From positions 138,115-202,114 of the forward strand of contig CAVVEB010000006.1 of NCBI GenBank assembly GCA_963747115.1: a stretch of DNA of 64,000 bases. Direction: 5' to 3'. Positions 9,014 to 22,443 of this stretch are shown here, in pieces. The notes under the pieces were generated by a model that had not been told where the DNA came from, did no database searches, and saw only the letters and a list, made by a program, of their open reading frames with translations. The first letter of the stretch is position 1, and every line of letters begins with the position of its first letter. The stretch comes from an uncultured delta proteobacterium. Its GTDB lineage: Bacteria > Desulfobacterota > Binatia > Binatales > Binataceae. Both the position numbers and the translations under genes were made by a program.

Positions 9014-9028
9014 TCATCAAGTTCTAAC

Positions 9029-9127: not shown

Positions 9128-9289
9128 TCAGACTGCTCTTCGGCCGGTGACCAGACCTACAAGGAACAGCACGACGAAGATAAAGAACAGTACCCTGGCG
9201 ATTTGTGAAGCTTCGCCAGCGATTCCTCCGAAGCCGAGAATTCCCGCGACAATCGCGACCACCAGAAAGACTAACGCGTAGTGCAGCAT
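9128..9289 (-). CDS. UPF0391 / DUF1328 small membrane protein
   Basis: Below the track's length cut-off. My translation is [53 protein letters not shown] (53 aa). This matches the highly conserved UPF0391 pattern ([26 protein letters not shown]...F). Confidence 0.75.
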
Positions 9290-9400
9290 TTGATCACTCC
9301 ATCGTTTGAGAGGCGATGCGCCAAACGAACGCAGTACAAAGGGACGCGCCCTCGTAGATGGATAGACGAAGGCAAAGTGCCGAAATTCACCATAATCGAA

Positions 9401-10186
9401 CTATCTAGCCGCTGGAGTCCTATTCTGAGACCGTTCCAGCGCGGCAGGGAGTTCGCTCAAATCTCCAATGATGTAGTCCGGCTGCGCGACGCCTTCCGGG
9501 ACCGCGGCGCCGTGGCGGTTGACCCACGCTGTGTGCATGCCGACGCTTTTGGCTCCCGCGATATCGTGGGCGTGCGTGTCACCGGCGAACAGCACTTCAC
9601 TCGCCGGCAGCTTCAGCATCTCGAGCATCCGTTGGAAGATTTTAGGATTGGGTTTTCTGAGACCGAGGTCGGCCGAGATGATGATCGCCTCGAACATCTC
9701 GCTCACACCAGTATCGGCCATGATCTGCCATCCGGTTTGCGAGTCGTCAAAGTTCGACAGCAGTCCGAGGCGATACCTTTTCGCGAGCCGATGCACCGCG
9801 TTGATCCGGGCGGCGGGCGCCGCAGTGGCCTCGCGCACCCCTTTCATATGAATTCGCGTGAGCTCTTGCGCCAACGATTGCCGCTCCGGGCTGTCCTCCA
9901 TCCCGAGCCGCGCCAGGGTGCGAAGGAACCTCTCGACGCAGGTGATCTCTATACCCTCGCGCTCGCGCTGCGCGTTGATTTCTTCGTACACGCGTCCGTG
10001 CCAGGTCATAAAGAGATCGCGGTCATATTTCGCGCCCAGCGCGTCAGCGAGTTTCGGCAGAATCCATGGAATGGTCGAACGAAGCTCGCGCCCGTGCCAC
10101 TCCATCACGGGAAGCAGATTGGGATCCCAATCGACCAAGGTATCAAACAGATCAAGAACGACCGCTTTGAACGTGTGTTCAGCCAC
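9401..10186 (-). CDS. HAD-superfamily hydrolase
   Basis: HAD motifs: motif I VVLDLFDTLV, motif II LLSNFD, motif III KPNPKIF, motif IV FAGDTHAHDIAGAKSVG. Confidence 0.8.
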   Translation of the reverse strand: MAEHTFKAVVLDLFDTLVDWDPNLLPVMEWHGRELRSTIPWILPKLADALGAKYDRDLFMTWHGRVYEEINAQREREGIEITCVERFLRTLARLGMEDSPERQSLAQELTRIHMKGVREATAAPAARINAVHRLAKRYRLGLLSNFDDSQTGWQIMADTGVSEMFEAIIISADLGLRKPNPKIFQRMLEMLKLPASEVLFAGDTHAHDIAGAKSVGMHTAWVNRHGAAVPEGVAQPDYIIGDLSELPAALERSQNRTPAAR

Positions 10187-10652
10187 GAGGCGCCAGGGCG
10201 GCAGCGGTGCCGAACAACGCGAAGAGGTCGAGCAGCAGAACCGCGCCGTTCAGCATCACCGATAGATGATGGAGGTTGTCGAATTCCGCCTTGGTGGCAG
10301 GATCGGGGTTGGCCTCCTCGGAGACCATCCGGATCGCGTCGACGCGAGGACGTACCACCGTGCCCGCGTAGAGCGTGCACGCGAGCGCGAGTCCGATCGC
10401 GACTACGGTTCCGGCCCACCATCCTCGGACGCCGCTGCTAATGGCGAGCAGGTAGATCGCGACGGCGAAGGCGAGCCCTCCGGCGAGGTATCCCAGGATG
10501 TAGTAGCGCGGGAAGATGACGCTGACGACTTTTCCCGCATCCGGTCGCGCCAGCACGGTGAACACCACCGGCGCGGTAAAGAAGGAGAAGAAAATAACCG
10601 AGCCGAGCCAGCAGACCATCGCCAGCAGATAAACAAAGATGATGACGATCAT
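10179..10652 (-). CDS. DUF4149-like (TMEM205-like) membrane protein
   Basis: Four hydrophobic helices. FFSFFTAPVVFTVL and FPRYYILGY are typical of DUF4149. I start it at the ATG at 10652 (MIVIIFVYLL), which removes the overlap with the upstream gene. Confidence 0.5.
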   Translation of the reverse strand: MIVIIFVYLLAMVCWLGSVIFFSFFTAPVVFTVLARPDAGKVVSVIFPRYYILGYLAGGLAFAVAIYLLAISSGVRGWWAGTVVAIGLALACTLYAGTVVRPRVDAIRMVSEEANPDPATKAEFDNLHHLSVMLNGAVLLLDLFALFGTAAALAPRG

Positions 10653-10659
10653 GCGTTTA

Positions 10660-11106
10660 TCAATTGAGCAGCGGCCTGGGAGTGCCTGGCAACGGACGGC
10701 GTTCCGCAAATCCGCTGTTGATGCTATGCCACGCCACTACGTGCGGTTCTCCAAATTGCCAGCACAAAAATACCACTTCATCCTCCTCGCCAGCCTCCGC
10801 GGCCTCGACCAGGAAGGGAAAATCGATCAGGCCTTGGTCGACATCTTTGAGGAAGCACCCCGTCGCCTCGATTTCGCTCGCAACCTCACTCATTCGCGCG
10901 GCGATCGGCTGAAGCTCGGGATAGCGCGCAATCACGTCGGGTAGATCGAGGTTGGCCAGCTTGTCGTCAAAACGCGCCATGTCACTGACGCGCTTACGCA
11001 GCGCATTCGCCTGGATTTGGAGATCCCGAATCAGGATCTCGAGCCGCGGGATCAGCTCATTGGCCTCGGCCGCGCTAAATAGTTTGTCAAATCGATGCCT
11101 ATCCAA
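10660..11106 (-). CDS. DUF2203 family protein
   Basis: 148 aa. FSAAEANELIPRLEILIRDLQ...GCFLKDVDQGLIDFP...VVFLCWQFGEPHVVAWH matches my memory of DUF2203. Confidence 0.65.
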   Translation of the reverse strand: MDRHRFDKLFSAAEANELIPRLEILIRDLQIQANALRKRVSDMARFDDKLANLDLPDVIARYPELQPIAARMSEVASEIEATGCFLKDVDQGLIDFPFLVEAAEAGEEDEVVFLCWQFGEPHVVAWHSINSGFAERRPLPGTPRPLLN

Positions 11107-11267
11107 AATTCTTTTGCCAGTAGCGTCTCGCCGTTACCATGCTTACCTTGATCCGAGGAGATTACCTTGTCTGCCTTGTACCCGTATACTACGGTAAACG
11201 TTGTGCGGGCCGAAAGAATCGGCGGCGTAAGCATTGAGGTTCTCTCCACAAGGGTGATTAATCGCTG

Positions 11268-13688
11268 ATGTCAGATAAGCCCAAAGGTGAGAAAAAGTTC
11301 GACGTTGAAGAGGATCTTAGCCGGGTCGAGATTCCCGATATCCTGCCCGTTCTCCCGCTGCGCGGGATCGTAATATTTCCCAGCCAGATTCATCCCTTCC
11401 TGGTTTCGCGGCCAGCCTCGCTGAAGCTTATAGATGACGTCGGCCAGGGCAGCCGGCTAATCGCGCTCGCCGCGCAAAGGAATCCGGAAGAGGAAAATCC
11501 GGGTCCCGAGGGAGTTTTTCAGCGCGCCACGGCGGTTCGCATCCTCAAGATGCTGCGCTATCCGGATCAAAGCGTGCGGGTTCTGGTGCAGGGTCTCGCG
11601 CGCCTCGAACTGCTTGACTTCACCCAGCGCGAACCTTACTTCAAGGCCAATGTGCGCCGCCTCGCCGACACTCTGGTTGCGGATAAAGAGGTCGAGGCTC
11701 TGCAAGCGCACCTGGTCAGCCAATTTTCCAAATTCGTTTCGCTGGTTCCTTATCTGCCCGATGAATTACAGGGCATTGCGATGCAGGTGCGCGAGCCGGG
11801 ACGGCTGACCGACCTGGTCGCGTCGTACCTGAAGATCGCGGTGGAAGAAGCGCAGGATCTCCTTTCGAGCACCGATATCCGCCAACGGCTGGAGAAGTTG
11901 ATCGCGATCCTGACTCGCGAAATCGAACTGCTCGAACTCGGGCACAAGATTCAATCGCAGGTTCAAACCGAGCTCAACAAAAATCAGCGCGAGTACTATC
12001 TGCGCCAGCAGCTCAAAGCGATTCAGAAGGAACTCGGCGAAGGCGATTCGCGCTCCAGCGAGCTCGAAGATATCGAGAAAAAAATCGAAGCCGCCAAGAT
12101 GCCCGAAGAGGCGCGTAAGGCGGCCGACAAGGAACTCGAGCGGCTCAAGATGATTCCGCCCGAGTCGGCGGAACATACCGTCGTGCGCACCTACCTAGAT
12201 TGGCTGGTGACTTTGCCGTGGAGCATCTCGACCGAGGATAACCTCGACATCAAACACGCCCGCGGCGTGCTCGACGAAGACCATTACGATCTCGAAAAGA
12301 TCAAGGAGCGCATCCTCGAATTTCTCGCGGTGCGCAAACTCAAAAAAAATACCAAGGGACCGATACTATGTTTTGTCGGTCCGCCGGGAACCGGCAAGAC
12401 TTCGCTAGGACGCTCGATTGCGCGCGCGCTCGGACGCAAGTTCGTGCGGCTCTCGCTCGGCGGCATCCGCGATGAAGCCGAGATCCGCGGACATCGCCGC
12501 ACCTACATCGGGTCGCTGCCGGGCCGCATCATCCAGGGTATCCGCAATGCGGGTTCCAATAATCCGCTCTTCATTCTCGACGAGGTCGATAAGCTGGGCG
12601 CCGATTTCCGTGGCGATCCCGCCTCGGCCCTGCTTGAGGTGCTCGATCCCGAACAGAACAACACCTTCCAGGATCACTACCTCGACGTTCCGTTCGATCT
12701 GTCGCATGTGTTGTTCCTGACCACCGCCAACCTGCTCGACACCATCCCGCACGCCCTGCTGGACAGGATGGAGGTGCTGGAGCTGCCGGGTTACACCGAG
12801 GAAGAAAAGCTCGAAATCGTCAAGCGGCATATCGTGCCCAAACAGCTCGAGGAAAACGGGCTGGGCAATCTGTCGATCGATTTCACGCCCGAAGCGATTT
12901 CGGAGATCGTGCGCAACTACACGCGTGAGGCCGGACTGCGAAACCTCGAACGCGAGATCGCGCGGGTATGCCGCAAGATCGCGCGCAGCATCACTGAAGG
13001 CGAGCAGCCGCCGACCAGAATCGTGCCCGAGCTGGTGCGCAAATATCTCGGTTCGCCCCGCTTCTTTTCGGAAGTCGCGGATCGCACGCAGGATCCCGGC
13101 GTTGCAACCGGGCTGGCGTGGACCGCCAGCGGGGGCGACATCCTCTTTATCGAATGCACCCGGATGAACGGGCAGAAGGCGTTGACTCTCACCGGCTCGC
13201 TCGGCGACGTGATGAAGGAATCGGCGCAGGCGGCGCTGTCCTACATTCGTTCGCGCGCGGATCGGCTCGGCATTCCGCCGGACTTCTTCGATAAATCGGA
13301 CATCCACGTTCATGTTCCCGCAGGCGCGATTCCCAAAGATGGGCCGTCCGCCGGCGTCACGATTGCGGCCTCGCTCGCCTCGCTCCTGACCGGGCGTGCA
13401 TGCCGGCCCGAGGTTGCTATGACGGGTGAGATCACGCTGCGCGGCAAAGTCCTGCCGGTCGGCGGAATCAAGGAAAAGGTGCTCGCGGCGCGCCGCGCGG
13501 GAATCAAGACGATCATCATGCCGCGGCGCAATGAGCGCGACCTCGAAGATATTCCCGAGGAACTCCGCCGCGAGCTGAAGATGTACTTCGTTGATACCGT
13601 CGACGAGGTTCTCGGTTACGCATTGCGCGGCGTCGACGAACCCGCGCAGGTCGAGGAGTCGCGTTCCGAGCGCACCGTCCTGAACTAA
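11268..13688 (+). CDS. lon: ATP-dependent Lon protease
   Basis: 806 aa. It has a LON N-domain, Walker [10 protein letters not shown], Walker [10 protein letters not shown], and the protease active site [15 protein letters not shown]...K. Confidence 0.97.
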
Positions 13689-13712
13689 GGAAATGAATTT
13701 CGCGAACCGAAG

Positions 13713-13746
13713 GGGCTGCTGAGATATCGGCGGCCCTTTTTCTTTG
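13713..13746 (+). terminator. Probable intrinsic terminator downstream of lon
   Basis: GGGCUGCU (13713-13720) pairs with GGCGGCCC (13729-13736), including G-U pairs, around an 8-nt loop. TTTTTCTTT follows. Confidence 0.5.
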
Positions 13747-13883
13747 GGTGGACGGCCTGCGATGGATGCGGGCGCTCGCCGGCCCCGGCTATGCGGTGTT
13801 CGCACCGAATCTGAAAGATTTCTTGCGCTTGGGGATTACCGATTCAAGCGGGATGGCGGATTGCCGGGAGGCGCACTACTCTT

Positions 13884-14429
13884 TTGCGGGGAAAAATGAA
13901 AATCCACATCGATCAAATTGGGGATCATACGGTCTGGCTCGGTCGCGGGTTGCGGCAGGTGCTGATAGGTTTTGCGATAGCCTGCATCCTGGTGCCCGCA
14001 GCGCAGGCCGCAACGCCGCATGCTCTGAGTGATGCGCAGATCGCGCAAATTAAGGACGCCTTCGGAGATCTTGCGCATACAATCGGCAAGGGACACCCGG
14101 CGCCTTGGGTCAACGGGTGTCAGGTCGTAGTGAACGCCAGTCCGGGCAACAAGGAATTCCGGGATAAATTTATGGCGATCGCAAAACGGGCGGGTTGCGG
14201 CGCGTCTATCGCCAAACACACACCAGCGCCAGCTGATGCGGACCCTACGACGGTCGTCATTTTTTCAACCGCATCAATGTACGACCTGACGGTGCAAGTG
14301 GTGAATACTGAAACCGACCACCTGGTATATGCCCTGAGAAAGCCTCCACTTAGCCTCGACGCGGAGCGAAGCGACAAAATGCCGCCGGAGGGTATTATCT
14401 ACATCGATCTGGGAAACGTCTCACCGTAG
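13884..14429 (+). CDS. Hypothetical secreted protein
   Basis: 181-aa ORF with a signal-peptide-like stretch (LIGFAIACILVPAAQAATP). No family recognised; the start codon is uncertain. Confidence 0.35.
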   Translation: MRGKMKIHIDQIGDHTVWLGRGLRQVLIGFAIACILVPAAQAATPHALSDAQIAQIKDAFGDLAHTIGKGHPAPWVNGCQVVVNASPGNKEFRDKFMAIAKRAGCGASIAKHTPAPADADPTTVVIFSTASMYDLTVQVVNTETDHLVYALRKPPLSLDAERSDKMPPEGIIYIDLGNVSP

Positions 14430-14451
14430 TCATCGAAATGAGCGGCGGAGA

Positions 14452-14757
14452 TCAAGCAATGAGGTCGCGGCCGATCCAGATCGTCGTTTGACGAATCGCG
14501 CGATTACGCAGTTCCGCGAGAGCTTGCAGGTCGGTATCGGCGCGATATCGCTCGAGCGATTGCGGGTCGGGAAAGGTGACGATGTGGACCTCGTGCGGTT
14601 GATCGGGATCTGCGCTCGCGGCGAAACCGATTCGGCGCTCGATGCGGCCGCCGTAGCGTCGCATGATCGCATCCGCCGCCGCCTCGAACTCTGCGAACTC
14701 GCGCTCCCGACAGGGGTGGATGCATAGCGCGGCAACGATAGTGAGTGGAGTCGGCAT
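14452..14757 (-). CDS. DUF1330 domain protein
   Basis: 101 aa; MPTPLTIVAALCIHP...FAEFEAAADAIMRRYGGRIERRI...HEVHIVTFPDPQSLERY fits DUF1330. The SD GAGG lies within the repeat core immediately upstream. Confidence 0.7.
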   Translation of the reverse strand: MPTPLTIVAALCIHPCREREFAEFEAAADAIMRRYGGRIERRIGFAASADPDQPHEVHIVTFPDPQSLERYRADTDLQALAELRNRAIRQTTIWIGRDLIA

Positions 14758-14865
14758 GAGAACCTCGCGGCGATGCGGAATTCAGGCAAGCCCTTCGAGT
14801 TTGATCTCTCCCGCAGCGATGCGACTCAGAGTGTCCACATAGATCACGTGCTCGGCTTCCAGCAT
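14758..14865 (-). repeat. Junction copy C: purN 3'-end remnant (27 codons plus stop) plus 33-nt core
   Basis: The minus strand reads ATG CTG GAA GCC GAG CAC... = MLEAEHVIYVDTLSRIAAGEIKLEGLA*, against the purN C-terminus VLEAEHAIYVETLGRIAAGEIKLEGLF*. The core AACCTCGCGGCGATGCGGAATTCAGGCAAGCCC is at 14761-14793. Confidence 0.85.
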
Positions 14866-16320
14866 TCACACGGTGGCCGCTTGTAGACGGCCCTCGCGTA
14901 CCGCTTTGCGCAGTTCCCGGTAGTCGCGCTCGGTCTGGTCGGCGTAGGCCACCGCGAACTTTGTCACCGCTTCATCGAAGACGCCGCTGTTGCCCAGATA
15001 GCCTGAGATCATCGAGGCGTCGCCCGAGCGCGCGTGAGCTCGCGCCAGGGTCCAACCGCACAGCTTTGCATAGGCCCGCAGCGTTTCGGAATCCATCGTT
15101 TCCATGATTACCGACAGCTTCACGTCGTGCAGTTGGCGCAAATAGAAATGCCGCCCGCCCAACATGCCTTCGGTCCAGCCCAGCATGATATCGCTGGCCG
15201 CCTGCATCAGGCGCTGACCCATGACCACGCGCTGCCCGTGATTGGAGTACACGCTTTTGCCCGCGTAGGGTTCGAGCACGGAGGCGTTGGCCTGTTTGAC
15301 CTGCAGGAACAGTGGATCGTTCGCAGCGGCCATGAACAAGGTCACCGCACAGAAGGTGCCGACGCTGCCGACGCCAACGACTTTGATTGCGATGTCGTAA
15401 AGCCGGAAACGATCGAGCAGAACTCGGTAAGGATCGGCTAGCGTGCCGCGATACATGTTCAGCGCATCCAGCACGTTGTCACGGGCTTCTTTGCTGCGGC
15501 TCCGTTGCTCGTGAAAAATCAACGGCGGATTATCCTTGATGCGTGGGGGGCTCTTGCCGTTACTCTCGACCAGTTTTGGAAAATCATGATCCAGCGAGGT
15601 CGGAGCGGTGCGCGCCTCATCCATTCGTGCGCGAAAACGCTTCTGCGCCGCGACGGGAAGCTCGGGTAGTAGCCTCTCGGCGTCGACGCGGTCGTACCAA
15701 ACCTCCATCGCGCGCAGGTCAGCGTAACGCGCCATCCAGCGCCGGTATGAGCGTGCCGCGCCGTGTGCTGCCGCCCGCGATTCGCGCTCCTTCAAACCGA
15801 TATGGCGCCCCGCTGCTACCAAACTCGCGGCGAGGCGCTTCAAATCCCACTCCCACGGGGCGGGCAGGGTCTCGTCAAAGTCGGGGATATCGAAAATCAC
15901 GTTGCGCTCGGGAGTGGCGAAAGCGCCGAAGTTCATCATGTGGCAATCGCCGCAAGCCTGGACCCGAATCCCACTTACCGGAGTGGTGGAAAGGTCCGCG
16001 GCCATCCCCGCGGCCGCGCCGCGCAGAAAGGCAAATGGCGACGTGAGCATCCGGCCATGCCGGATCGGCACCAATTCCGGAATGCGCCCCTTGTTGGAAG
16101 CTATCAGGATGTCGATAGGGTCGGGCCGGTCGCGCCGTTCTTTCCATTTGCCGTGGCTCTCACGGGGAACCTTTTCGCGCAACGCCTTGCCGGCCGCCCG
16201 GCGCTCTTGCGGCGAGAGCCGCTTGCGCTCGAAAAAGTCCTCTCCCAGCTTGCGCGCGCGGGCCGACTTGATCTGGCTGCCGGCCACCGGCCTGCCATTG
16301 GTCTCAAGTTGTGGTTCCAT
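14866..16320 (-). CDS. DUF2252 domain protein
   Basis: 484 aa. FAFLRGAAAGMAADL, VQACGDCHMMNFGAF, IFDIPDFDETLPAPWEWDLKRLAAS are characteristic DUF2252 blocks. Its stop codon directly abuts the purN remnant of copy C. Confidence 0.75.
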   Translation of the reverse strand: MEPQLETNGRPVAGSQIKSARARKLGEDFFERKRLSPQERRAAGKALREKVPRESHGKWKERRDRPDPIDILIASNKGRIPELVPIRHGRMLTSPFAFLRGAAAGMAADLSTTPVSGIRVQACGDCHMMNFGAFATPERNVIFDIPDFDETLPAPWEWDLKRLAASLVAAGRHIGLKERESRAAAHGAARSYRRWMARYADLRAMEVWYDRVDAERLLPELPVAAQKRFRARMDEARTAPTSLDHDFPKLVESNGKSPPRIKDNPPLIFHEQRSRSKEARDNVLDALNMYRGTLADPYRVLLDRFRLYDIAIKVVGVGSVGTFCAVTLFMAAANDPLFLQVKQANASVLEPYAGKSVYSNHGQRVVMGQRLMQAASDIMLGWTEGMLGGRHFYLRQLHDVKLSVIMETMDSETLRAYAKLCGWTLARAHARSGDASMISGYLGNSGVFDEAVTKFAVAYADQTERDYRELRKAVREGRLQAATV

Positions 16321-16435
16321 GGTTTATCCCACGCCGTTGAACACGGATGGCCAACGGCGTGCGATTGTGCGCCGTTGCATCGTCTCTTGGCAATCGGACC
16401 TCGGGCCAACGCGCTATGGTGTGAGTTGATGTGGG

Positions 16436-16477
16436 AACTTCGCGACGATGGGGAATTCAGGCAAGCCCTTCGAGTTC
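16436..16477 (-). repeat. Junction copy D: short core only
   Basis: AACTTCGCGACGATGGGGAATTCAGGCAAGCCC (16436-16468) plus TTCGAGTT equals the last codons of purN (..LEGLA*) plus the intergenic spacer. It is nearly identical to copy C. Confidence 0.75.
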
Positions 16478-16751
16478 AGTTCGCGCTCTGCGTCGTGATT
16501 TGGATCGAGAGCAAGTAAACGTGCGTCGCGTCGAATGTATAATAAACGGTCAGCGGGCTTAGCCGCCCCACGTCTACAGTCGGCAGGAACCAGACCGGCG
16601 GATCGTCGGTTGTTAGTGGCGAACCAATTTCAGGCTGACGGGCCAACGCCCACTCGGTCGCTTCTATAAATTCGTCCGCCGCCCTGGCTCCGCCTGTCGT
16701 CAGGTCGCGCAATTGCACCTCGAATGCATGCGTTCTGACAACGGTGCGCAA
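16476..16751 (-). CDS. Putative toxin partner of the Panacea antitoxin (family not recognised; possibly RelE/ParE-like fold)
   Basis: 91-aa ORF with a TTG start 3 nt after the stop of the upstream Panacea-domain gene, which suggests translational coupling. The pattern HAFEVQLRDL...EFIEATEWALARQPEIG...LTVYYTFDATHVYLLSI loosely resembles RelE/ParE-type toxins. Confidence 0.4.
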   Translation of the reverse strand: MRTVVRTHAFEVQLRDLTTGGARAADEFIEATEWALARQPEIGSPLTTDDPPVWFLPTVDVGRLSPLTVYYTFDATHVYLLSIQITTQSAN

Positions 16752-16754
16752 GAA

Positions 16755-17324
16755 CTACCGATGTGCGCCAGATAGCGCTTCTTTGGCGAGCTTTTGAAGC
16801 GCACGACCTTTGCGCCGTTCAGCCTCCGTTGGCTTACGGTTCCCGATCAGGATGACGGAATACGGAATCGTTTCGCCTTCCTCCGCCAATTTCCAGCCCA
16901 AAAAGAAGTGCGACTCGTCGCTGATCTGGGTCGCATTCATCTTCCAAAACCGTCCGACAACTTCTTCGACCAAATCGAGTTCTTCGCGGCGGAACTTGCT
17001 AATGTCGGCGGTCCTGATCGCAACCGGCCGGATTTGAGTGAAACGATATCTTTTCTCGTGTCGCTCAGTCAGGTCGCCCGCCCGCTTCATGGCGTCTACT
17101 ACGGGCCTTAGCCGGCGCGGAGCAGGACCCTGAGCCAATGCCTGATACTCTTGACCTGTGATCGGGGCGCCGAATCTCTGGTAGGCCAGAAAGTCGGAAT
17201 AGAAAAGCAGTTTGTTAAGTTTGACCGCGCCGAACTTTTCGTCTCTGGAAGACAGAGACGCCAAATACAGAATCAGCTCTCGGAGCTTGTCGTCGTCGGG
17301 GTGTTGTCGTGTCTTCGGAGCCAT
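16755..17324 (-). CDS. Panacea (DUF4065 / SocA-like) antitoxin-domain protein
   Basis: 189 aa. GAVKLNKLLFYSDFLAYQRFGAPITGQEYQALAQGPAPRRL matches the DUF4065 signature (KL.KLLyY.d......g.pi....y.A...GPv). Confidence 0.65.
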   Translation of the reverse strand: MAPKTRQHPDDDKLRELILYLASLSSRDEKFGAVKLNKLLFYSDFLAYQRFGAPITGQEYQALAQGPAPRRLRPVVDAMKRAGDLTERHEKRYRFTQIRPVAIRTADISKFRREELDLVEEVVGRFWKMNATQISDESHFFLGWKLAEEGETIPYSVILIGNRKPTEAERRKGRALQKLAKEALSGAHR

Positions 17325-17407
17325 GACTGTAGGGCGCGACTGGGCGCCTTCCCGATGATATCAACACGATAACGGAGCGTCGATCCCCTCCAAAAGAGGA
17401 CCCCGCC

Positions 17408-17500
17408 CTAACGGACGTTAGGGCGCCGCCTCGAACTCCTATCGAACTCGGGCGCGCTTCTGGGATATATGAACAGAGCGACGACGATAGTGACTGGCAT
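17408..17500 (-). pseudogene. 5' remnant of a second DUF1330 gene
   Basis: My translation MPVTIVVALFIYPRSAPEFDRSSRRRPNVR* aligns with the intact DUF1330 N-terminus MPTPLTIVAALCIHPCREREFAEFEAA. DNA homology includes GAGTTCGAGGCGGCG. Core copy E precedes it, with the same GAGG SD. Confidence 0.55.
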
Positions 17501-17510
17501 TGGCTTAGAT

Positions 17511-17543
17511 AACCTCGCAGCGACGCGGAGTTCAGGCGACCCC
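17511..17543 (-). repeat. Junction copy E: 33-nt core
   Basis: AACCTCGCAGCGACGCGGAGTTCAGGCGACCCC differs from copy C at a handful of positions. It abuts the stop codon of the DUF3800 gene. Confidence 0.7.
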
Positions 17544-18280
17544 TAACTCCAATACCGCTTCGCGTACTGCGCCCGAAACGCAGATAATTCCTTCGGCCCA
17601 AGGAATATAGATTTGCCGCGAACCGTTCTAAGCTCGTCCCACACGCGCGCGGACCAGCGGCGCTTATGTAGAAGCTGTTCCTCGTAATCGCGCCGAGTGT
17701 GCCACGCAAACAGATCGGCGGCCTGTAAGGGTAGATTCTCCTTGTCATTCTCAAAGCGCGGTCGGCTAACGAGCATGTCCGACAGTTTTTTTGGAAGATG
17801 CGAACGCATGCCGTCGTAACTCTCGCTGATCTGTTTCTCTCGCGAGAGCACGCCCTGATCAAAGATGAGTTCGATCTGCTCTGGCGGCTGTTTTACGGAT
17901 GCCGAATGAAGCAACCATGTAACGATATGGCAATAGGCTAGCGCGTCGGGATTTTTCATTATCCCTTTCGGCTGTCGCAGAACTTTCTTGAACGCGCGAG
18001 AGTCAATCGCTACTGAGAGCGCGATAAGTTCGTATTTACGAATAACGGCGATCAGCTCGCACAGTTTTGCGTCTCGCTCGGCTTCTGTCCAACCAGCGAA
18101 TTCGTACTTTAGCGCGTTTGCTGCTATGCCCTTTAGGTATGGCAATTCAGGCGACTTTCGCATGACTGCCTGATACTCCCCAGCGCAGTCCTTAATTCTA
18201 TCCGCGAAACCGACGTATCCGGCCAAAACAAAAACCGGATCGAGCCCTCGTCCACTCTCGTCGAACCACGCCTGTAACAT
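17543..18280 (-). CDS. DUF3800 domain protein
   Basis: 245 aa. The N-terminal AWFDESGRGLDPVFVLAGYVG matches the DUF3800 D-E-S-G start motif. Confidence 0.6.
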   Translation of the reverse strand: MLQAWFDESGRGLDPVFVLAGYVGFADRIKDCAGEYQAVMRKSPELPYLKGIAANALKYEFAGWTEAERDAKLCELIAVIRKYELIALSVAIDSRAFKKVLRQPKGIMKNPDALAYCHIVTWLLHSASVKQPPEQIELIFDQGVLSREKQISESYDGMRSHLPKKLSDMLVSRPRFENDKENLPLQAADLFAWHTRRDYEEQLLHKRRWSARVWDELRTVRGKSIFLGPKELSAFRAQYAKRYWS

Positions 18281-18308
18281 TGGTTTTTCTCAGAATTCGC
18301 GAAGCGCC

Positions 18309-18432
18309 TTATAGCCCTTCCAGTTTGATCTCTCCCGACGCGATGCGGCTGAGAGTCTCCACATAGATCGCGTGCTCGGCTTCCAGCACCCGCGCACCTA
18401 GACTCTCGACGGTGTCGCCGGGCCGCACCGGA
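18309..18432 (-). repeat. Junction copy B: purN 3'-end remnant (about 39 codons)
   Basis: 18315-18432 aligns with 20044-20160 of intact purN with roughly nine mismatches over about 117 nt, counted by eye. It encodes ...RPGDTVETLGARVLEAEHAIYVETLSRIASGEIKLEGL*. Confidence 0.9.
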
Positions 18433-18533
18433 TTCGGATCATCGCTTGACTATCGAGCTTCGGCGGCGTCCAGTCGATCCTCTGACGCTTGCCGACGACA
18501 CGTCTGCGGACGGGATGTTGCACTGATCGTTGC

Positions 18534-18851
18534 TTAGGGCAGGAACTCCCTAGCAAGACGCCCCACCATTTGCTCAATGTCCGCCCTTTCGAAGACACCG
18601 CTCAAAGGAATCGTTGGCTTCCCGTTGTCATACCACATGAGCCAGTAACACTCGCGGTTATCCTGCTTATCGAACGCGTGTTCGAGCCAAAGTGAGGAAG
18701 AGCCGTCCGCGATGAGGGCGTTGTCGAATACGCTCCCACCTGTTGCTGACGTGCGGTGCGGTTTTCCTTTGTTGATGTTGGTTCGAAAGCGATGGTTTTC
18801 GCACGAATAGTCGAGTCTGTTTCCATTCTGAACGATCCTAAAGTCCTTCAT
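18534..18851 (-). CDS. Hypothetical protein (cassette cargo)
   Basis: 105-aa ORF in a lower-GC segment. No recognisable family. Confidence 0.3.
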   Translation of the reverse strand: MKDFRIVQNGNRLDYSCENHRFRTNINKGKPHRTSATGGSVFDNALIADGSSSLWLEHAFDKQDNRECYWLMWYDNGKPTIPLSGVFERADIEQMVGRLAREFLP

Positions 18852-18967
18852 GGTGTCACCTCAAAAACATCGTCGGGATTCTTCGACAGTCTGTGCCGCA
18901 GACGGCGTGGCTCTGAATCACAGCAAAAGACTGTAGGCCCATCAAAATTCAACCAGTGCCGAAACTC

Positions 18968-19939
18968 TCACCCACATTTCGCCAATGTCGGCCAAACTTC
19001 GAAAACTTCCGGACCGGGCGACAAGGCATTTACCAAGTAGACTTTCGTGAATGGGATCGGGGTTTTTGTTGCCAAAAACCGCGCAGCTTCCCGAGCCATA
19101 CTCTCGAACGTTTCGTACGCTAGGTCATGGTACGGCGAATTATAAAGCACGGCGTCGTCGTAGTAGATGAGGAGCCTTATGTCGCTGCTCTCGGACTTTC
19201 CATAGTGGCAGATTTTCTTGTCGAATATGTTCTTAAGAGCCCGTACGGCGTTTTCTGAGGAATAGGCGCCGCCGTCGGCCGGAAATTTGGTCCAACTCGG
19301 TGCCTGAGCCTCGCGCAAAATATTCACTCCTTGCGCTTCAGCCCAAACTTTGACGTCTTCGTGGAATTGTCGAAGGAGACCCTGCGAATCGGGATCGGAC
19401 CAAGCTCGTTCAATAGCCTCACCGATTGCCCTCTCTTGATACGAATCGCGAGGTAGGAACAGGGCACTCCTGACGTACTTTTGAAGAGTGGGGTATTCAG
19501 CGAACTCGGTTAGTGGCAAGTAGCAATTACCGTGTTCGAACAGTTCACTACAGTTTCGATCGATTTTTGCGGTCAAGCGCCCAAATTCATTCTTGAAGAC
19601 GTCCATATCTTTATCGCGAAACCGTACCTCTTTGACCTGGATCATCACGTAAGCAAAGTTGCTCGGTTCCGGTATTGAGGAGGCCGAGAACACCCTTTGA
19701 AGCGCGCTCCGAAGCTTCTCTTTTCGCTTTGCGGTCGCCGCTTGTAACGGCTCAAGCCATTCGCCTAGCTGAAATCCTATCTCGCCTCCGTTCTTAAGCT
19801 TCGCCAGGACATCCGCCGGCTCTTTGGGCGCAGGTCCGTAAGCCTCCATCCGATCTCCGAAGGAGGGATATGCATCGATGAAGCATCTGAAAACGGCGAG
19901 TTCGTGCTGTTTCTGATTCGGATCCGAGTCTGTTCGCAT
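18968..19939 (-). CDS. Hypothetical protein (cassette cargo)
   Basis: 323-aa ORF in a lower-GC segment. No recognisable family. The N-terminal ...EPADVLAKLKNGGEIGFQLGEW is weakly reminiscent of a PD-(D/E)xK nuclease core; this is speculative. Confidence 0.35.
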   Translation of the reverse strand: MRTDSDPNQKQHELAVFRCFIDAYPSFGDRMEAYGPAPKEPADVLAKLKNGGEIGFQLGEWLEPLQAATAKRKEKLRSALQRVFSASSIPEPSNFAYVMIQVKEVRFRDKDMDVFKNEFGRLTAKIDRNCSELFEHGNCYLPLTEFAEYPTLQKYVRSALFLPRDSYQERAIGEAIERAWSDPDSQGLLRQFHEDVKVWAEAQGVNILREAQAPSWTKFPADGGAYSSENAVRALKNIFDKKICHYGKSESSDIRLLIYYDDAVLYNSPYHDLAYETFESMAREAARFLATKTPIPFTKVYLVNALSPGPEVFEVWPTLAKCG

Positions 19940-20033
19940 AGAAACGCTTCTGGCAGCTGTGATGCCAGCATCAAACCGCTATTAGGCTACTCTATTGAGA
20001 TTAGTGTTTCACGGAGAAAACGGAAATCCGGCC

Positions 20034-20642
20034 TTAAAAAAGGCCTTCCAGCTTGATCTCTCCCGCCGCGATGCGGCCAAGAGTCTCCACGTAGATCGCG
20101 TGCTCGGCTTCCAGCACTCGCGCACCTAAAGTCTCGACGGTGTCGCCGGGCCGCACCGGAACTTTTTTTTGCGCCAGAATCTTGCCGCGATCGTATTCCG
20201 CATCTGCCAGATGAACGGTGACACCGTCTTCCTTGTCGCCGGATTCCAGCACCGCCGCATGCACGCGCTCTCCATACATTCCTTTGCCGCCGAATTTCGG
20301 CAACAGCGCGGGATGGATGTTGAGCACGCGGCCGCGATAACGCGCGAGCGTTTTCGGCCCCAGCTTTTTCATGTAGCCGGCGAGGACGACGACATTCACC
20401 TGATACTTTTCGAGCGTCTCGAGGATCGCTTCATCGAGGCGACCCGGATCGGGATGAACGTGCGCGCTCAGATGGAACGCGGGAACCCGCGCCGCCATCG
20501 CGCGATCGAGAACCATCGCATCTGAGTTGTTGCTGATGACCACGCGCGGTTCGGCGTCGAGCCTGCCCTCGCGGCAGGCGTCGAGAATCGCCTGCACGTT
20601 GCTGCCGCCGTGCGAGGCCATAAATCCGAGCCGCAGTTTCAT
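20034..20642 (-). CDS. purN: Phosphoribosylglycinamide formyltransferase
   Basis: MKLRLGFMASHGGSNVQAILDA..., VVLAGYMKKL, LNIHPALLPKFGGKGMYG, GVTVHLADAEYDRGKILAQ are classical PurN blocks. I place the start at the ATG at 20642. Confidence 0.9.
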   Translation of the reverse strand: MKLRLGFMASHGGSNVQAILDACREGRLDAEPRVVISNNSDAMVLDRAMAARVPAFHLSAHVHPDPGRLDEAILETLEKYQVNVVVLAGYMKKLGPKTLARYRGRVLNIHPALLPKFGGKGMYGERVHAAVLESGDKEDGVTVHLADAEYDRGKILAQKKVPVRPGDTVETLGARVLEAEHAIYVETLGRIAAGEIKLEGLF

Positions 20643-20685
20643 CGCCCCGGCATTATAGCCCGGCATGGTAGAATGACGAGGAGTC

Positions 20686-21246
20686 TTAGCGAACCAGAAC
20701 CGGGCGCTTCTGCGGCGGGCGCAGCAGATCGGCGCGCGCGAGCATCACTCGATGCGGCGACTTTATCGCGGCGAGCAATTCGGAAATCGACGAGTTCAGC
20801 TTCGGATGGATCAGCGTCGGCGCCAACTCCGCCATCGGGGCCAGCACGAAGCGGCGCTCGTGGAGGCGCGGGTGCGGTATCGTGAGCGCGCGCGTGTTGA
20901 TCGCTTCTTTATCGTAGAAGAGCAGATCCAGATCGATGATGCGCGGCCGATATTTTCCGCGCAGAGGCTTGCGTCCCTTGAACGGCTTGCGGCCCATCCC
21001 GCGCTCGATCGTAAGCAGCCGCTTCATCAGAATTTCGGGCGTGGTCTCGGCTTCGACTTCGATGACGCCGTTGAGAAACGGCCACTTGAGCATCAGCTCG
21101 TCGCCGACCGGTTCGGTCTCGTAGATCGAGGATTGGCGCACGACGCGCGTACCGGGGATGGCAGCGATCTTTTGGATCGCCTCCCGGTAATTGCCGGCTC
21201 GGTCGCCGAGATTGCTGCCTATTCCAATGAAAGCCCGATGGGGCAT
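20686..21246 (-). CDS. folK: 2-amino-4-hydroxy-6-hydroxymethyldihydropteridine diphosphokinase (HPPK)
   Basis: AFIGIGSNLGDR, SSIYETEPVG, PRIIDLDLLFY, LTIPHPRLHERRFVLAPMAEL. Confidence 0.9.
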   Translation of the reverse strand: MPHRAFIGIGSNLGDRAGNYREAIQKIAAIPGTRVVRQSSIYETEPVGDELMLKWPFLNGVIEVEAETTPEILMKRLLTIERGMGRKPFKGRKPLRGKYRPRIIDLDLLFYDKEAINTRALTIPHPRLHERRFVLAPMAELAPTLIHPKLNSSISELLAAIKSPHRVMLARADLLRPPQKRPVLVR

Positions 21247-21255
21247 TTCTTGACG

Positions 21256-22443
21256 CTAAAACTTAAGCGCCTTTATCCTTTCCACCGCCTCGTTCAATCG
21301 CTCACTCGACACCGTCAAAGAAAAGCGAACGAACCCTTCGCCACCCTTGCCGAATCCCGAGCCTGGCGTAATTGCCACGCCCGCTTCTTTCAGCACGCGC
21401 TCAGTGAACGAAATCGAGGTGTGGCCCTTGGGCACCTCGGCCCATATATAAAAAGTTGCGCGCGGAAGATCGCACGATAGACCCATCGCGCGAAGTGCGC
21501 CGACCAGAAGATCGCGCCGCTGCTTGTAGATGGCGCAATAGGCCGCGAGCTGATCGCCGTCGCCGCCGTCGAGCGCGGTGATCGATCCTTCCTGAATCGA
21601 TTGCGGAACGCCGGAGTCGCAGTTGGTTTTGACTTTTCCGAGCGCGCCCACCAGCGCCGCGTTGCCGACCGCGAAGCCGGCGCGCCATCCGGTCATCGAA
21701 AATGTTTTCGACAACGAATGAAATTCGATCGCGCATTCGCGGGAACCGTCCACCTGAAAAACGCTGGGCGCGCGATAACCGTCGTACGCGATCTCGGAGT
21801 AGGCGTTATCGTGCGCGAGAATGATGTCGTGCTTGAGACAGAACGCGACCGCCTCTTTGAAAAAATCCAGCTCGACTGTCGCACCGGTGGGATTGTTCGG
21901 ATAGTTGAGCCATAACAACTTGGCGCGGCGCGCGACTTCGATCGGAATCGATTTGAAATCGAGTTTGAAACCGTTGTCCTTGCGCAAAGTGCAGAAGAAC
22001 GGCTGGCCGCCATTGAACACGCATCCGGAGTAGTAGACCGGGTAGCCGGGATCGGGGATGAGCACGATGTCGCCGGGATCGACGACGGCGGTCGCGAAGT
22101 TCGCGATGCCTTCCTTGGAACCGATGAGCGCGCAGACTTCGGTGCGCGGATCGAGATCCACTTCGAAGCGCTTCTTGTACCATCCGGCGGCGGCCTGGCG
22201 ATATTCGGGCAGCCCTTCGTAATCGGGGTAGCGATGGTTCTTCGGGACATCGGCAGCGCGCTTGATACTCGAGACGATATGCGCGGGAGTCGGCAGGTCG
22301 GGATCGCCGATACCGAGGCTGATGACGTCGACGCCCTTGGCCTGAACCTCCTTCTTCAGCCGGTCGAGTTCGGCGAAGAGATAGGGGGGCAAGAGGCCGA
22401 GTCTCGAGGCGGTTTTGATCTGCACTTGATCCCTTTTTCTCAA
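21256..22443 (-). CDS. Class I/II PLP-dependent aminotransferase, probably LL-diaminopimelate aminotransferase (DapL-type)
   Basis: 395 aa. LPPYLFAELDRLKKEV...ISLGIGDPDLPTP, NYPNNPTG, SLSKTFSMTGWR (PLP lysine). The DapL assignment is an inference from similarity to annotated DapL-like enzymes and from dapA/B/F/lysA being present with no dapD/C/E seen in the window. Confidence 0.65.
   Translation of the reverse strand: MRKRDQVQIKTASRLGLLPPYLFAELDRLKKEVQAKGVDVISLGIGDPDLPTPAHIVSSIKRAADVPKNHRYPDYEGLPEYRQAAAGWYKKRFEVDLDPRTEVCALIGSKEGIANFATAVVDPGDIVLIPDPGYPVYYSGCVFNGGQPFFCTLRKDNGFKLDFKSIPIEVARRAKLLWLNYPNNPTGATVELDFFKEAVAFCLKHDIILAHDNAYSEIAYDGYRAPSVFQVDGSRECAIEFHSLSKTFSMTGWRAGFAVGNAALVGALGKVKTNCDSGVPQSIQEGSITALDGGDGDQLAAYCAIYKQRRDLLVGALRAMGLSCDLPRATFYIWAEVPKGHTSISFTERVLKEAGVAITPGSGFGKGGEGFVRFSLTVSSERLNEAVERIKALKF

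What the first reader, a model, noticed from the sequence alone, without database searches (positions are those of the whole stretch)
14758..20160. Integrase-less cassette array at the 3' end of purN, with every junction marked by a decaying copy of the purN-end/DUF1330-start junction
Seen directly in the sequence:
- The last approximately 117 nt of purN (20044-20160) recur at 18315-18432. That copy encodes ...VLEAEHAIYVETLSRIASGEIKLEGL*.
- A more diverged copy lies at 14782-14865 (MLEAEHVIYVDTLSRIAAGEIKLEGLA*).
- A 33-nt core occurs three times: 14761-14793, 16436-16468 and 17511-17543 (AACCTCGCGGCGATGCGGAATTCAGGCAAGCCC and variants). It comprises the final purN codons, the intergenic spacer and the GAGG SD of DUF1330.
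- Copy E is followed by a 31-codon remnant of a second DUF1330 gene (17408-17500).
- Each cargo ORF ends within 10 nt of a core.
- All cargo is co-oriented with purN, looks lower in GC, and is DUF, toxin-antitoxin or orphan in type: DUF2252; Panacea plus partner; DUF3800; and a 323-aa plus 105-aa pair.

Inference: the purN/DUF1330 junction is a site-specific integration hotspot that was hit at least three times, duplicating the target each time. No recombinase is present in the array or anywhere in this window. The elements are therefore either mobilised in trans or are decayed remnants. A protein-gene 3' end acting as a multi-cassette acquisition site without a resident integrase is unusual. 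The cargo resembles defence-island content.
Basis: partly seen in the sequence, partly recalled or inferred. Interest (0 to 1): 0.78.

Follow-up and report, generated by a model that had tools for sequence, protein, structure and literature searches.

The report
Orphaned purN gene-end array with cargo
Downstream of the housekeeping gene purN in an uncultured Binatia-like bacterium lie four small blocks of foreign genes, each followed by a left-over copy of the end of purN; this records repeated gene acquisition at one spot with no recombinase gene in the 64-kb window, a pattern known from other loci but not, in the one literature search run, at purN.

Summary
The last 117 nt of purN recur at 18316-18432 (93%, E 2e-44) and 14789-14864 (88-91%). 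The purN-end/DUF1330-start junction recurs at 16432-16476 and 17424-17544. There are no other such repeats in the 64 kb. An independent Logan assembly reproduces the whole array at 100% identity, and no two copies share a 31-mer, so it is not an assembly chimera.

No integrase or transposase is found in the window by Pfam. The stubs differ in length (120, 13, 20, 84 nt), share no common att core, and lack attC-like folding. Differences between stubs are mostly synonymous (pN/pS 0.16-0.26), so each was probably once a working purN end in a diverged lineage. The purN/DUF1330 junction is itself a lineage-specific rearrangement joint.

Best reading (about 0.5): serial homology-anchored additive recombination, or "sequential displacement", as proposed for Rhs and T6SS orphan arrays. 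Each event pushes the old gene end and its neighbours downstream. The main rival (about 0.25) is decayed tandem accretion of integrase-borne islets (CIME-like).

The cargo is DUF2252, a Panacea TA pair, DUF3800 and an orphan pair whose 323-aa member has homologues on conjugative elements. None hits PADLOC. This is a new variant of a known kind, of moderate interest.

The parts
20034..20666 (-). purN (phosphoribosylglycinamide formyltransferase), intact. Its last 117-120 nt (20041-20160) are repeat copy A. It ends ...KLEGLF*.
   Evidence: Pfam Formyl_trans_N, E 2e-48. 79-85% identical orthologues with conserved upstream synteny.
18433..20033 (-). Cargo block 1: 323-aa ORF (18968-19939) and 105-aa ORF (18534-18851). 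No family assigned. GC3 0.58 and 0.65.
   Evidence: No Pfam, NCBIfam, PHROGs or PADLOC hit. The 323-aa protein has 11 homologues. The one whose context was examined (63% identical) lies beside Trb/VirB type IV secretion genes or, on two contigs cut short there, an unannotated ORF in the same position; an IS3 transposase is also present on two contigs (6 contigs in all).
18309..18432 (-). Copy B: orphaned purN 3' end, 120 nt plus its own stop. Encodes ...VLEAEHAIYVETLSRIASGEIKLEGL*.
   Evidence: 117 nt, 93.2% identical to copy A, E 2e-44. 7 synonymous against 3 non-synonymous differences.
17543..18280 (-). Cargo block 2: DUF3800 protein (245 aa). It starts 28 nt after the stop of copy B. Its TAG stop overlaps the first bases of copy C.
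   Evidence: Pfam DUF3800, E 6.6e-10. GC3 0.59.
17424..17544 (-). Copy C: last ~13 nt of a purN end, then the spacer/DUF1330 leader (core 17511-17543), then a frameshifted 5' remnant of a second DUF1330 (ATG at 17500; homology ends at 17424; the ORF runs to 17408).
   Evidence: 121-nt gapped alignment to the resident junction. Score 91 against 16.4 +/- 2.2 for shuffles. The remnant is about 76% identical to the resident DUF1330 and equally to orthologues in L174 and L176.
17402..17415 (-). Terminator-like hairpin followed by a T-run, directly after the DUF1330 remnant.
   Evidence: Consensus scan and RNAfold. Function not shown.
16476..17324 (-). Cargo block 3: SocA/Panacea-domain protein (16755-17324, 189 aa) and a 91-aa partner ORF (16476-16751). 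A putative toxin-antitoxin pair.
   Evidence: Pfam SocA_Panacea, E 1.2e-15. phrog_1281. The partner has no family. GC3 0.63 and 0.67.
16432..16476 (-). Copy D: last 20 nt of a purN end (identical to copy E), then the spacer/DUF1330 leader. Homology stops about where DUF1330 should start.
   Evidence: 45-nt alignment, score 70 against 15.5 +/- 2.2. 42 nt at 92.9%, E 2e-11.
14866..16320 (-). Cargo block 4: DUF2252 protein (484 aa) with host-like composition. Its TGA stop abuts copy E.
   Evidence: Pfam DUF2252, E 2e-141. GC3 0.75.
14758..14865 (-). Copy E: orphaned purN 3' end (84 nt, 14782-14865, MLEAEHVIYVDTLSRIAAGEIKLEGLA*) plus the 24-nt spacer with GAGG that leads into DUF1330.
   Evidence: 76 nt at 90.8% to B and 73 nt at 87.7% to A. 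The spacer's right half matches the native DUF1330 leader of relative L176.
14452..14757 (-). Resident DUF1330 gene (101 aa), the right-hand boundary of the array.
   Evidence: Pfam DUF1330. 79-85% identical orthologues in Binatia-like contigs, where the upstream neighbour is glgA or another gene and never purN.

Best explanation
The region is a string of orphaned purN 3' ends. It was built by at least four additive recombination events anchored on homology to the purN end, and for two events also to the purN/DUF1330 joint, without a dedicated recombinase.

In each event, DNA from a diverged relative or from a mobile element entered the cell. That DNA carried its own copy of the purN end plus whatever lay downstream of it. 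It paired with the resident purN and was joined at its far end by an illegitimate or short-homology join a few to 120 nt upstream of the resident stop codon. Equivalently, it integrated as a circle by a single crossover.

The incoming copy became the working end of purN. The previous end, with its former downstream genes, was pushed one step further away and began to decay. The array therefore reads as stacked snapshots of different 'purN-downstream' haplotypes: A then 323+105 aa; B then DUF3800; C then DUF1330 remnant then Panacea pair; D then DUF2252; E then DUF1330.

Shown:
- the repeats and their order;
- variable stub lengths;
- absence of a recombinase in the window;
- synonymous-biased divergence between copies;
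- the rearranged origin of the joint;
- homologues of one cargo gene lying in a conjugative-element context.

Inferred: the recombination pathway, the order of events and the donors.
For: 1. The stubs begin at four unrelated positions: TCCGGTGCGG at -120, AGGGGTCG at -13, AACTCGAAGG at -20 and ATGCTGG at -84. No shared motif marks their boundaries. Illegitimate joins or different carried homology segments would give this. A single att site would not.

2. After stubs C and D comes host-type flank (DUF1330 leader, plus about 77 nt of DUF1330-homologous sequence (an ORF of 31 codons, 93 nt, running past the end of homology) after C and possibly a few nt of it after D), not element-specific sequence. 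This is natural if each unit is a donor haplotype of the same locus.

3. Differences among copies A, B and E are mostly synonymous in the purN frame. pN/pS is 0.16, 0.19 and 0.26. Binomial p is 0.006, 0.008 and 0.047 against neutrality. The copies therefore diverged mainly while translated and under selection.

4. Copy C, in the middle of the array, is the most diverged copy. Its DUF1330 remnant is as far from the resident gene as from other genera's orthologues. This argues against simple in-situ duplication.

5. No integrase, transposase or recombinase domain was found in the ORFs scanned with Pfam, which cover most of the window; GH1, Lon, ActB and Cox1 were identified by homology or synteny instead. 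Non-coding gaps in the array are about 250 nt or less, leaving no room for a hidden integrase.

6. The purN downstream flank differs between related genera: aldo-keto reductase, SDR, or a 102-aa ORF then AKR. The upstream synteny is conserved. purN/DUF1330 adjacency is unique to this lineage.

7. The mechanism has precedent. [quoted passage not shown]

8. The structure is real. It appears in an independent assembly at 100% identity, and the longest exact match between any two copies is 29 nt.
Against: - No donor, empty site or alternative cargo state was found. Every protein of the locus is a singleton at 90% clustering, and the closest purN and DUF1330 relatives are only 85% identical. The model rests on this one array.
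- Three of four cargo blocks end exactly at the stop codon of their last ORF. Random illegitimate joins do not predict this (sequence).
- Classical homology-facilitated illegitimate recombination usually deletes recipient DNA rather than duplicating it. A circular intermediate or a join inside the anchor must be assumed.
- The DUF3800 block shares only about 8-13 nt between its two flanks.
- The pN/pS test rests on 9-11 substitutions per pair. It only marginally excludes a mixed model of one selected and one decaying branch (own estimate, p about 0.06-0.07 per pair).
- The rest of the genome (the source contig is 245 kb) could not be searched for a trans-acting integrase.
Confidence: 0.5

Rival explanations
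1. Decayed tandem accretion of site-specific integrative elements (CIME-like). Several integrase-carrying islands or ICEs integrated one after another into the 3' end of purN. Each carried a replacement copy of the gene end in its attP. Later deletions removed the integrases and most of each island, leaving 1-2 genes and truncated att repeats. Any remaining mobility would need an integrase supplied in trans.
For: - Direct repeats of a target gene's 3' end flank each unit, which is the hallmark of such arrays.
- Integrase-less units are documented: CIMEs (PMC5704250) and 15 Dehalococcoides ssrA islands without an integration module (PMC3146451).
- All units are co-oriented.
- The 323-aa cargo protein has homologues beside Trb/VirB conjugation genes, as expected for the remains of an ICE.
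- The gradient of GC3 from DUF2252 (0.75) to block 1 (0.58) fits newest-next-to-purN insertion.
Against: - Repeat lengths and boundaries are not uniform (120, 13, 20, 84 nt).
- No sequence longer than about 8 nt is common to all junctions, and copies A and B lack the 'core'.
- There is no integrase gene or fragment in the array, and none was found in the parts of the 64-kb window that were scanned.
- Units are only 1.0-1.7 kb.
- Two 'elements' would have to carry 45-126 nt of the host's DUF1330 leader and coding start in their attP, although that joint is a lineage-specific rearrangement.
- Four independent deletions would each have to end at or near an ORF stop.
Confidence: 0.25
2. In-situ origin. 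Each insertion of foreign DNA duplicated a stretch of the resident purN/DUF1330 joint, like a long target-site duplication or a replication template switch. The displaced copies have since decayed neutrally.
For: - All three long purN-end copies resemble each other (EAEH[AV]IYV[ED]TL) more than any database purN does (EVEHQLYAETL; only the closest cluster, P0002 and its relatives, ends ..AAEHEIYVETIQRIA).
- Divergence from the working end rises with distance: B 7%, E 12%.
Against: - Substitutions between copies are synonymous-biased, not neutral.
- Copy C carries 93 nt of DUF1330, whereas the copy it would have been made from (D) has at most about 12-20 nt.
- C is more diverged than D and E although it should be younger.
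- No known insertion mechanism gives duplications of 13 to 146 nt.
Confidence: 0.08
3. Assembly chimera. Strain variants of one purN locus, each with different cargo, were concatenated by the assembler through the shared purN-end sequence.
For: The source is a metagenome-assembled contig, and the repeats are the kind of sequence that can mislead assemblers.
Against: - A second assembler (Logan, single run ERR11523662) gives two contigs identical to the window across every junction.
- The longest exact match between any two copies is 29 nt (A-B) or 25 nt (D-E). At k of 31 or more there is no repeated node to mis-thread.
- Junctions such as cargo-1 tail joined to purN position -120 cannot come from any simple single-cargo locus.
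Confidence: 0.03

Closest known systems
Sequential-displacement arrays: orphan Rhs/CDI toxin 3' ends and Vibrio cholerae T6SS effector-immunity arrays (Kirchberger et al. 2017, PMC5361080)
   Same: - A conserved upstream gene serves as the homology anchor.
- Each acquisition adds a new gene end plus new downstream gene(s) and shifts the old 3' end and its partner downstream.
- The result is a co-oriented string of orphaned 3' regions.
- No integrase is involved; homology-facilitated illegitimate recombination is the proposed pathway.
   Different: - The anchor here is a housekeeping purine-biosynthesis gene, not a polymorphic toxin with a variable C-terminus.
- The displaced stubs are 13-120 nt of conserved coding sequence, not alternative toxin domains.
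- The cargo blocks are functionally unrelated to the anchor and to one another.
- No selective logic such as retention of immunity genes is evident.
Tandem accretion of ICEs/IMEs and cis-mobilizable elements (CIMEs) at the 3' end of genes (S. thermophilus fda; streptococcal rpsI, rpmG and tRNA targets; PMC5704250). Also Dehalococcoides ssrA genomic islands (PMC3146451).
   Same: - Units lie in tandem downstream of an intact target gene.
- Each unit is bounded by a direct repeat of the gene's 3' end.
- Some units lack any integration module.
- The newest unit is thought to lie next to the gene.
   Different: - Known arrays have uniform short att repeats (for example 20 bp in ssrA), and at least some units carry integrases.
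- Units in known arrays are kilobases to tens of kilobases long.
- Here the repeats are heterogeneous in extent, no integrase is present, units are 1.0-1.7 kb, and some repeats extend into the downstream gene.
Tycheposon-built islands of Prochlorococcus (bioRxiv 10.1101/2020.12.28.424599)
   Same: Successive integrations at one site push older elements further in. They leave partial copies of the target gene and degraded remnants scattered through the island.
   Different: - In the passages read, tycheposon integrations leave partial tRNA copies, i.e. tRNA-gene targets, and they carry tyrosine recombinases.
- Fragmented integrases are seen among the remnants.
- None of this is seen here.
Integron cassette arrays and CALINs
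   Same: Small, mostly single-gene, co-oriented units without predicted promoters above chance. Each ORF ends close to the unit boundary. Newest-first order is plausible.
   Different: No intI and no attC: the junctions have no significant secondary structure and are copies of a coding-gene end. The array is therefore not a member of this family.

Membership tests
Integron / CALIN cassette array | IntI tyrosine recombinase next to the array (integron), or attC sites alone (CALIN) | tested here: not met
   No Phage_integrase or any recombinase domain in the array, nor in the rest of the window as far as scanned.
Integron / CALIN cassette array | attC sites: imperfect palindromes that fold into hairpins, with R''/R' core sites at each cassette boundary | tested here: not met
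   Junction folds have z from -1.65 to +1.73 against shuffles. The boundaries are copies of the purN coding end.
Tandem accretion of site-specific integrative elements / CIMEs | Each unit flanked by direct repeats derived from the 3' end of the target gene | tested here: met
   Copies A-E.
Tandem accretion of site-specific integrative elements / CIMEs | A common att core of constant position and extent at every junction | tested here: not met
   Stubs start at -120, -13, -20 and -84. Only about 8 nt (GAAGGNCT) is shared by A, B, D and E, and it is degenerate in C.
Tandem accretion of site-specific integrative elements / CIMEs | A cognate integrase in one unit or elsewhere in the genome, and excision as circles | not testable with these tools
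   Absent from the 64-kb window. The rest of the 245-kb contig, the genome and the raw reads are not available.
Sequential-displacement (orphan 3'-end) arrays, Rhs/CDI/T6SS type | Conserved upstream anchor followed by a string of displaced 3' ends, each with its own downstream partner gene(s) | tested here: met
   The anatomy, with the repeat alignments. Each stub is followed by a different gene set.
Sequential-displacement (orphan 3'-end) arrays, Rhs/CDI/T6SS type | Displaced ends stem from different alleles or strains rather than from in-situ duplication | tested here: inconclusive
   pN/pS of 0.16-0.26 between copies and a strongly diverged copy C point that way. No donor was found.
Sequential-displacement (orphan 3'-end) arrays, Rhs/CDI/T6SS type | The anchor is a polymorphic toxin or effector with cognate immunity genes | tested here: not met
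   The anchor is purN (Formyl_trans_N). The array therefore shares the proposed mechanism but is not a family member.
Tn7-like / CRISPR-associated transposon insertion downstream of a conserved gene | TnsA/B/C-type transposition genes, terminal TnsB-binding repeats and a 5-bp target duplication | tested here: not met
   No rve, transposase or AAA transposition proteins in the window. The duplications are 13-146 nt.
PanA (Panacea) type II toxin-antitoxin pair | SocA/Panacea-domain antitoxin adjacent to a small toxin gene in a two-gene operon | tested here: inconclusive
   Panacea domain, E 1.2e-15. The 91-aa partner lies 4 nt downstream but has no family in Pfam, NCBIfam, PHROGs or PADLOC.
Anti-phage defence island | Cargo proteins matching known or candidate defence systems | tested here: not met
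   0 PADLOC hits for all seven cargo proteins and the neighbouring 181-aa ORF.

The most novel reading that the evidence does not exclude
The end of purN, with its fused DUF1330 leader, works as a genuine cassette-capture site: a chromosomal landing pad. Gene-sized units ending exactly at their stop codons are added next to purN. The agent would be an undiscovered trans-acting recombinase with a very short core (about GAAGGNCT at the purN stop), or a self-propagating RecA-driven cycle. In that cycle, recombination between stubs loops out a circle of cargo plus stub, and the circle re-integrates in any relative that has the same gene end. Either way it would be an integron-like acquisition system without intI or attC, built on a housekeeping gene.
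Probability: 0.1. Interest if true: 0.75.

Novelty: new variant of a known kind. Interest (0 to 1): 0.42.

Why it matters
Most explanations of how bacterial chromosomes pick up small accessory genes at "hotspots" invoke integrases or plain double-crossover replacement. This locus is a clean natural record of at least four additive acquisitions beside an essential-pathway gene, with no recombinase in sight.

The left-over gene ends preserve the order of events. Their substitution pattern also says something about the donors. If the homology-anchored displacement reading is right, the mechanism proposed for toxin loci (Rhs, CDI, T6SS) also operates at ordinary housekeeping genes, in a poorly known phylum (Binatia-like). 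It could then be a general, under-recognised way of building small gene arrays.

It also suggests a practical signature, orphaned 3' ends of core genes, for scanning metagenomes for such events.

Tried and rejected
Searches that did not help:
- Scans of genome contigs and metagenome contigs with PurN returned only relatives of 65% identity or less.
- Among about 170 such loci, none has a second purN C-terminal copy or a DUF1330 neighbour.
- Exact look-ups of PurN failed twice.
- Contexts of 79-85% PurN relatives show no DUF1330 and no stubs.
- Contexts of 79-85% DUF1330 relatives show no purN.
- No empty site or alternative cargo state was found.
- IMG/VR scans for the 323-aa and DUF3800 proteins found nothing. 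PLSDB plasmids also gave no hit.
- Rfam found no RNA family in 13500-21500. The only tRNA is tRNA-Met at 46946, so this is not a tRNA-type island.
- NCBIfam gave 0 hits. PHROGs hit only the Panacea protein. PADLOC gave 0 hits.
- AlphaFold of the 323-aa protein with its 12-sequence family failed (pLDDT 36.8), so no fold search was run.
- Promoter-like sites in the array are not above chance: 4 found against 2.4 +/- 1.5.
- The only literature link between purN and integration sites was a cargo gene in a Frankia element, which is irrelevant.

Ideas considered and rejected:
- Integron or CALIN: no intI, no attC.
- Tn7-like insertion: no transposase; duplications are the wrong size.
- Xer/dif module: no AT-rich dif-like sequence seen by eye at the GC-rich junctions; not formally tested.
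- Extension of copy E's homology into the last codons of DUF2252: only 4 of 7 matches, not significant.

Full report
ANATOMY

Read on the minus strand, the region has the following order.

- purN (20666-20034).
- Block 1: a 323-aa ORF (19939-18968) and a 105-aa ORF (18851-18534).
- Copy B of the purN end (18432-18309).
- Block 2: DUF3800 (18280-17543).
- Copy C (17544-17424). It holds about 13 nt of a purN end, the 24-nt spacer, and a frameshifted 5' remnant of a second DUF1330.
- A terminator-like hairpin (17415-17402).
- Block 3: a Panacea-domain protein (17324-16755) and a 91-aa partner (16751-16476).
- Copy D (16476-16432). It holds the last 20 nt of a purN end plus the spacer.
- Block 4: DUF2252 (16320-14866).
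- Copy E (14865-14758). It holds 84 nt of a purN end plus the spacer.
- The resident DUF1330 (14757-14452).

Upstream of purN lie folK (HPPK) and an aminotransferase. Beyond DUF1330 lie a 181-aa orphan ORF and lon.

Yes. The pairwise matches are far above chance.

| Pair | Length | Identity | E-value |
|---|---|---|---|
| A vs B | 117 nt | 93.2% | 2e-44 |
| B vs E | 76 nt | 90.8% | 3e-22 |
| A vs E | 73 nt | 87.7% | 1e-15 |
| D vs E | 42 nt | 92.9% | 2e-11 |

Copy C looks weak in ungapped comparison. With gaps it aligns to the resident junction over 121 nt, scoring 91 against 16.4 +/- 2.2 for shuffles. No other direct repeat of comparable quality exists anywhere in the 64 kb. No further copy of the junction occurs in the window.

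The structure is not an assembly artefact.
- Two contigs from an independent assembly (Logan, single run ERR11523662) cover 20505..16044 and 16066..13503 at 100% identity and cross every junction.
- The longest exact match between any two copies is 29 nt, too short to create a repeated node at k = 31.

- Only two of the four terminal cargo ORFs end within 10 nt of the 33-nt core.
- DUF2252 is not low in GC (GC3 0.75 against 0.70-0.79 for host genes). The other cargo genes are lower, at 0.58-0.67.

WHAT THE JUNCTION IS

DUF1330 homologues carry the source name Candidatus Binataceae. The organism is therefore Binatia-like.

Relatives with PurN 79-85% identical keep the upstream order cytochrome c, aminotransferase, HPPK, purN. 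Downstream of purN they differ: an aldo-keto reductase, an SDR, or a 102-aa ORF followed by an aldo-keto reductase. None has DUF1330 there.

Relatives with DUF1330 79-85% identical have it downstream of glgA or of another gene, and next to lon.

Mapping the genes of L177 onto the window shows that the segment from DUF1330 to x274 (window 14757-8255) is inverted relative to that relative. Its DUF1330 side is now fused to the purN end.

In relatives purN stops directly after ...G-L.

The purN/DUF1330 joint is therefore a derived, lineage-specific rearrangement junction. Copies C, D and E all descend from that single fusion.

IS THERE A RECOMBINASE OR A RECOMBINATION SITE?

Pfam scans of the array, of all otherwise unidentified ORFs and of 20 further genes in the window found only housekeeping or unknown families. 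No integrase, resolvase or transposase appeared. The four ORFs not scanned were identified otherwise: GH1 and Lon by tblastn to relatives, ActB and Cox1 by position, size and synteny only.

The purN stubs begin at -120, -13, -20 and -84 relative to the stop, with unrelated sequence at each left boundary. Copies A and B end their homology at the purN stop and do not contain the spacer. The only sequence present in all five junctions is about 8 nt (GAAGGNCT), and it is degenerate in C.

The junctions have no unusual folding (z from -1.65 to +1.73). No Rfam family and no tRNA lies near the array.

WHERE DID THE COPIES COME FROM?

In the purN reading frame the differences between copies are mostly synonymous.

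| Pair | Synonymous : non-synonymous | pN/pS | p vs neutrality |
|---|---|---|---|
| A-B | 7 : 3 | 0.16 | 0.006 |
| A-E | 7 : 4 | 0.19 | 0.008 |
| B-E | 5 : 4 | 0.26 | 0.047 |

The displaced copies thus spent most of their divergence time as translated, selected gene ends. This suggests they are purN ends of diverged relatives rather than decaying in-situ duplicates. The numbers are small. A mixed model with one selected and one neutral branch is only marginally excluded.

Copy C supports the same view.
- It lies in the middle of the array but is the most diverged copy.
- Its DUF1330 remnant is 76% identical to the resident gene and equally to orthologues from other contigs.
- It carries 93 nt of DUF1330, whereas the neighbouring copy D has almost none. 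C therefore cannot have been copied from D.

THE CARGO

- DUF2252 and DUF3800 have unknown function.
- The Panacea protein (Pfam E 1.2e-15; phrog_1281) with its 91-aa partner looks like a PanA-type toxin-antitoxin pair (compare PMC8832971). The partner has no family.
- The 323-aa protein belongs to a family of 12 proteins. A homologue 63% identical lies, on six independent metagenome contigs, beside trbL (four contigs; the neighbour is cut off on the other two); virB4 on three of them, virB3, trbC, a virB11-like ATPase and traG on the longest, and an IS3 transposase on two. It therefore comes from the gene pool of conjugative elements.
- None of the cargo proteins matches a PADLOC defence model.
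- NCBIfam, IMG/VR and PLSDB gave nothing.
- A structure prediction of the 323-aa protein failed (pLDDT 36.8).

MECHANISM

I favour serial homology-anchored additive recombination, or 'sequential displacement' (confidence about 0.5).
- Incoming DNA carries a purN end and its own downstream genes.
- It pairs with the resident purN.
- Its far end joins illegitimately a short way upstream of the resident stop. Alternatively the DNA circularises and integrates by one crossover.
- The old end and its neighbours move one step downstream.

This accounts for several findings:
- variable stub lengths;
- host-type flank after stubs C and D;
- the lack of any integrase;
- co-orientation of all units;
- selection-type divergence between copies;
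- variability of the purN downstream flank among genera.

The same logic has been proposed for T6SS effector-immunity arrays and for strings of orphaned Rhs 3' regions (PMC5361080).

The order of events is uncertain. One possibility is that the array grew leftward from purN only. Another is that it grew outward from an old central junction (C), with the right half anchored on DUF1330.

The main rival (about 0.25) is tandem accretion of integrase-borne islets that later lost their integrases. Such CIME-like states are documented at gene 3' ends and at ssrA (PMC5704250, PMC3146451). Heterogeneous repeats, the missing common core and the tiny units count against it. The conjugative-element affinity of block 1 counts for it.

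In-situ duplication (about 0.08) and assembly chimera (about 0.03) are unlikely, for the reasons given above.

UNEXPLAINED

In three of four blocks the stop codon of the last ORF touches or overlaps the first base of the following stub.
- DUF2252: TGA followed directly by ATGCTGG.
- 91-aa ORF: the A of its TGA is the first base of AACTCGAAGGG.
- DUF3800: the AG of its TAG overlaps AGGGGTCG.

Neither random illegitimate joins nor classical att sites predict such gene-precise boundaries. This keeps open, at low probability, a true cassette-type mechanism.

VERDICT

- A defined site-specific hotspot served by a trans-acting integrase is not supported.
- The defence-island reading is not supported.
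- The arrangement is a new variant of known kinds of array, found at a housekeeping gene in a poorly studied lineage.
- Interest is moderate (0.42). It would rise sharply if population data showed active, recombinase-free cassette exchange.

Noticed in passing
window 2327-3741 (+): The MBOAT acyltransferase gene is split into two overlapping ORFs (2327-3172 and 3094-3741) that match successive parts of the Pfam model. This indicates a frameshift, a pseudogene or a sequencing error.
   Followed up: no
window 37984-38871 (-): Two adjacent orphan ORFs (136 and 145 aa) with low GC3 (0.58-0.60) and no Pfam family lie between gpsA and a DUF1054 gene. They may be a second small insertion. No flanking repeats were seen.
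   Followed up: partly
window 13884-14429 (+): A 181-aa ORF lies between lon and DUF1330. It has no family and no homologue in relatives. At the same place L177 has nothing and L174/L176 have an alpha/beta hydrolase. This is a second variable spot next to the array.
   Followed up: partly
window 8255-14757 compared with locus L177 10001-16328: The segment from DUF1330 through lon, DUF2203, DUF4149 and HAD to x274 is inverted relative to a Binatia-like relative. RNase H, glgA and a thioesterase are missing from it. The array sits at one breakpoint of this rearrangement.
   Followed up: yes
loci L177 9840-10000, L178, and the N-termini of P0133, P0142, P0150, P0155, P0176: DUF1330 orthologues in other contigs are preceded by a conserved leader that translates in frame as HDKxxALRHxARxDxR. 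This may be a conserved uORF or a regulatory leader. Only its last ~20 nt survive in the window's spacer.
   Followed up: no
window 14782-14868 (-): The DUF2252 stop and the first codon of the purN stub form TGAATG. A G-to-A change turned the purN GTG codon into ATG, creating a 27-codon ORF (MLEAEH...GLA*) placed for translational coupling. It may be chance.
   Followed up: no
window 44419-44952 (-): A 177-aa ORF with GC3 0.56 and no Pfam family lies about 2 kb from the only tRNA gene of the window (tRNA-Met, 46946-47022).
   Followed up: no
loci L170 and L171, about 11190-11450: Two contigs encode the identical PurN (P0011) but differ by one extra ~75-nt tandem repeat unit about 0.6-0.8 kb downstream of the purN stop.
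   Followed up: no
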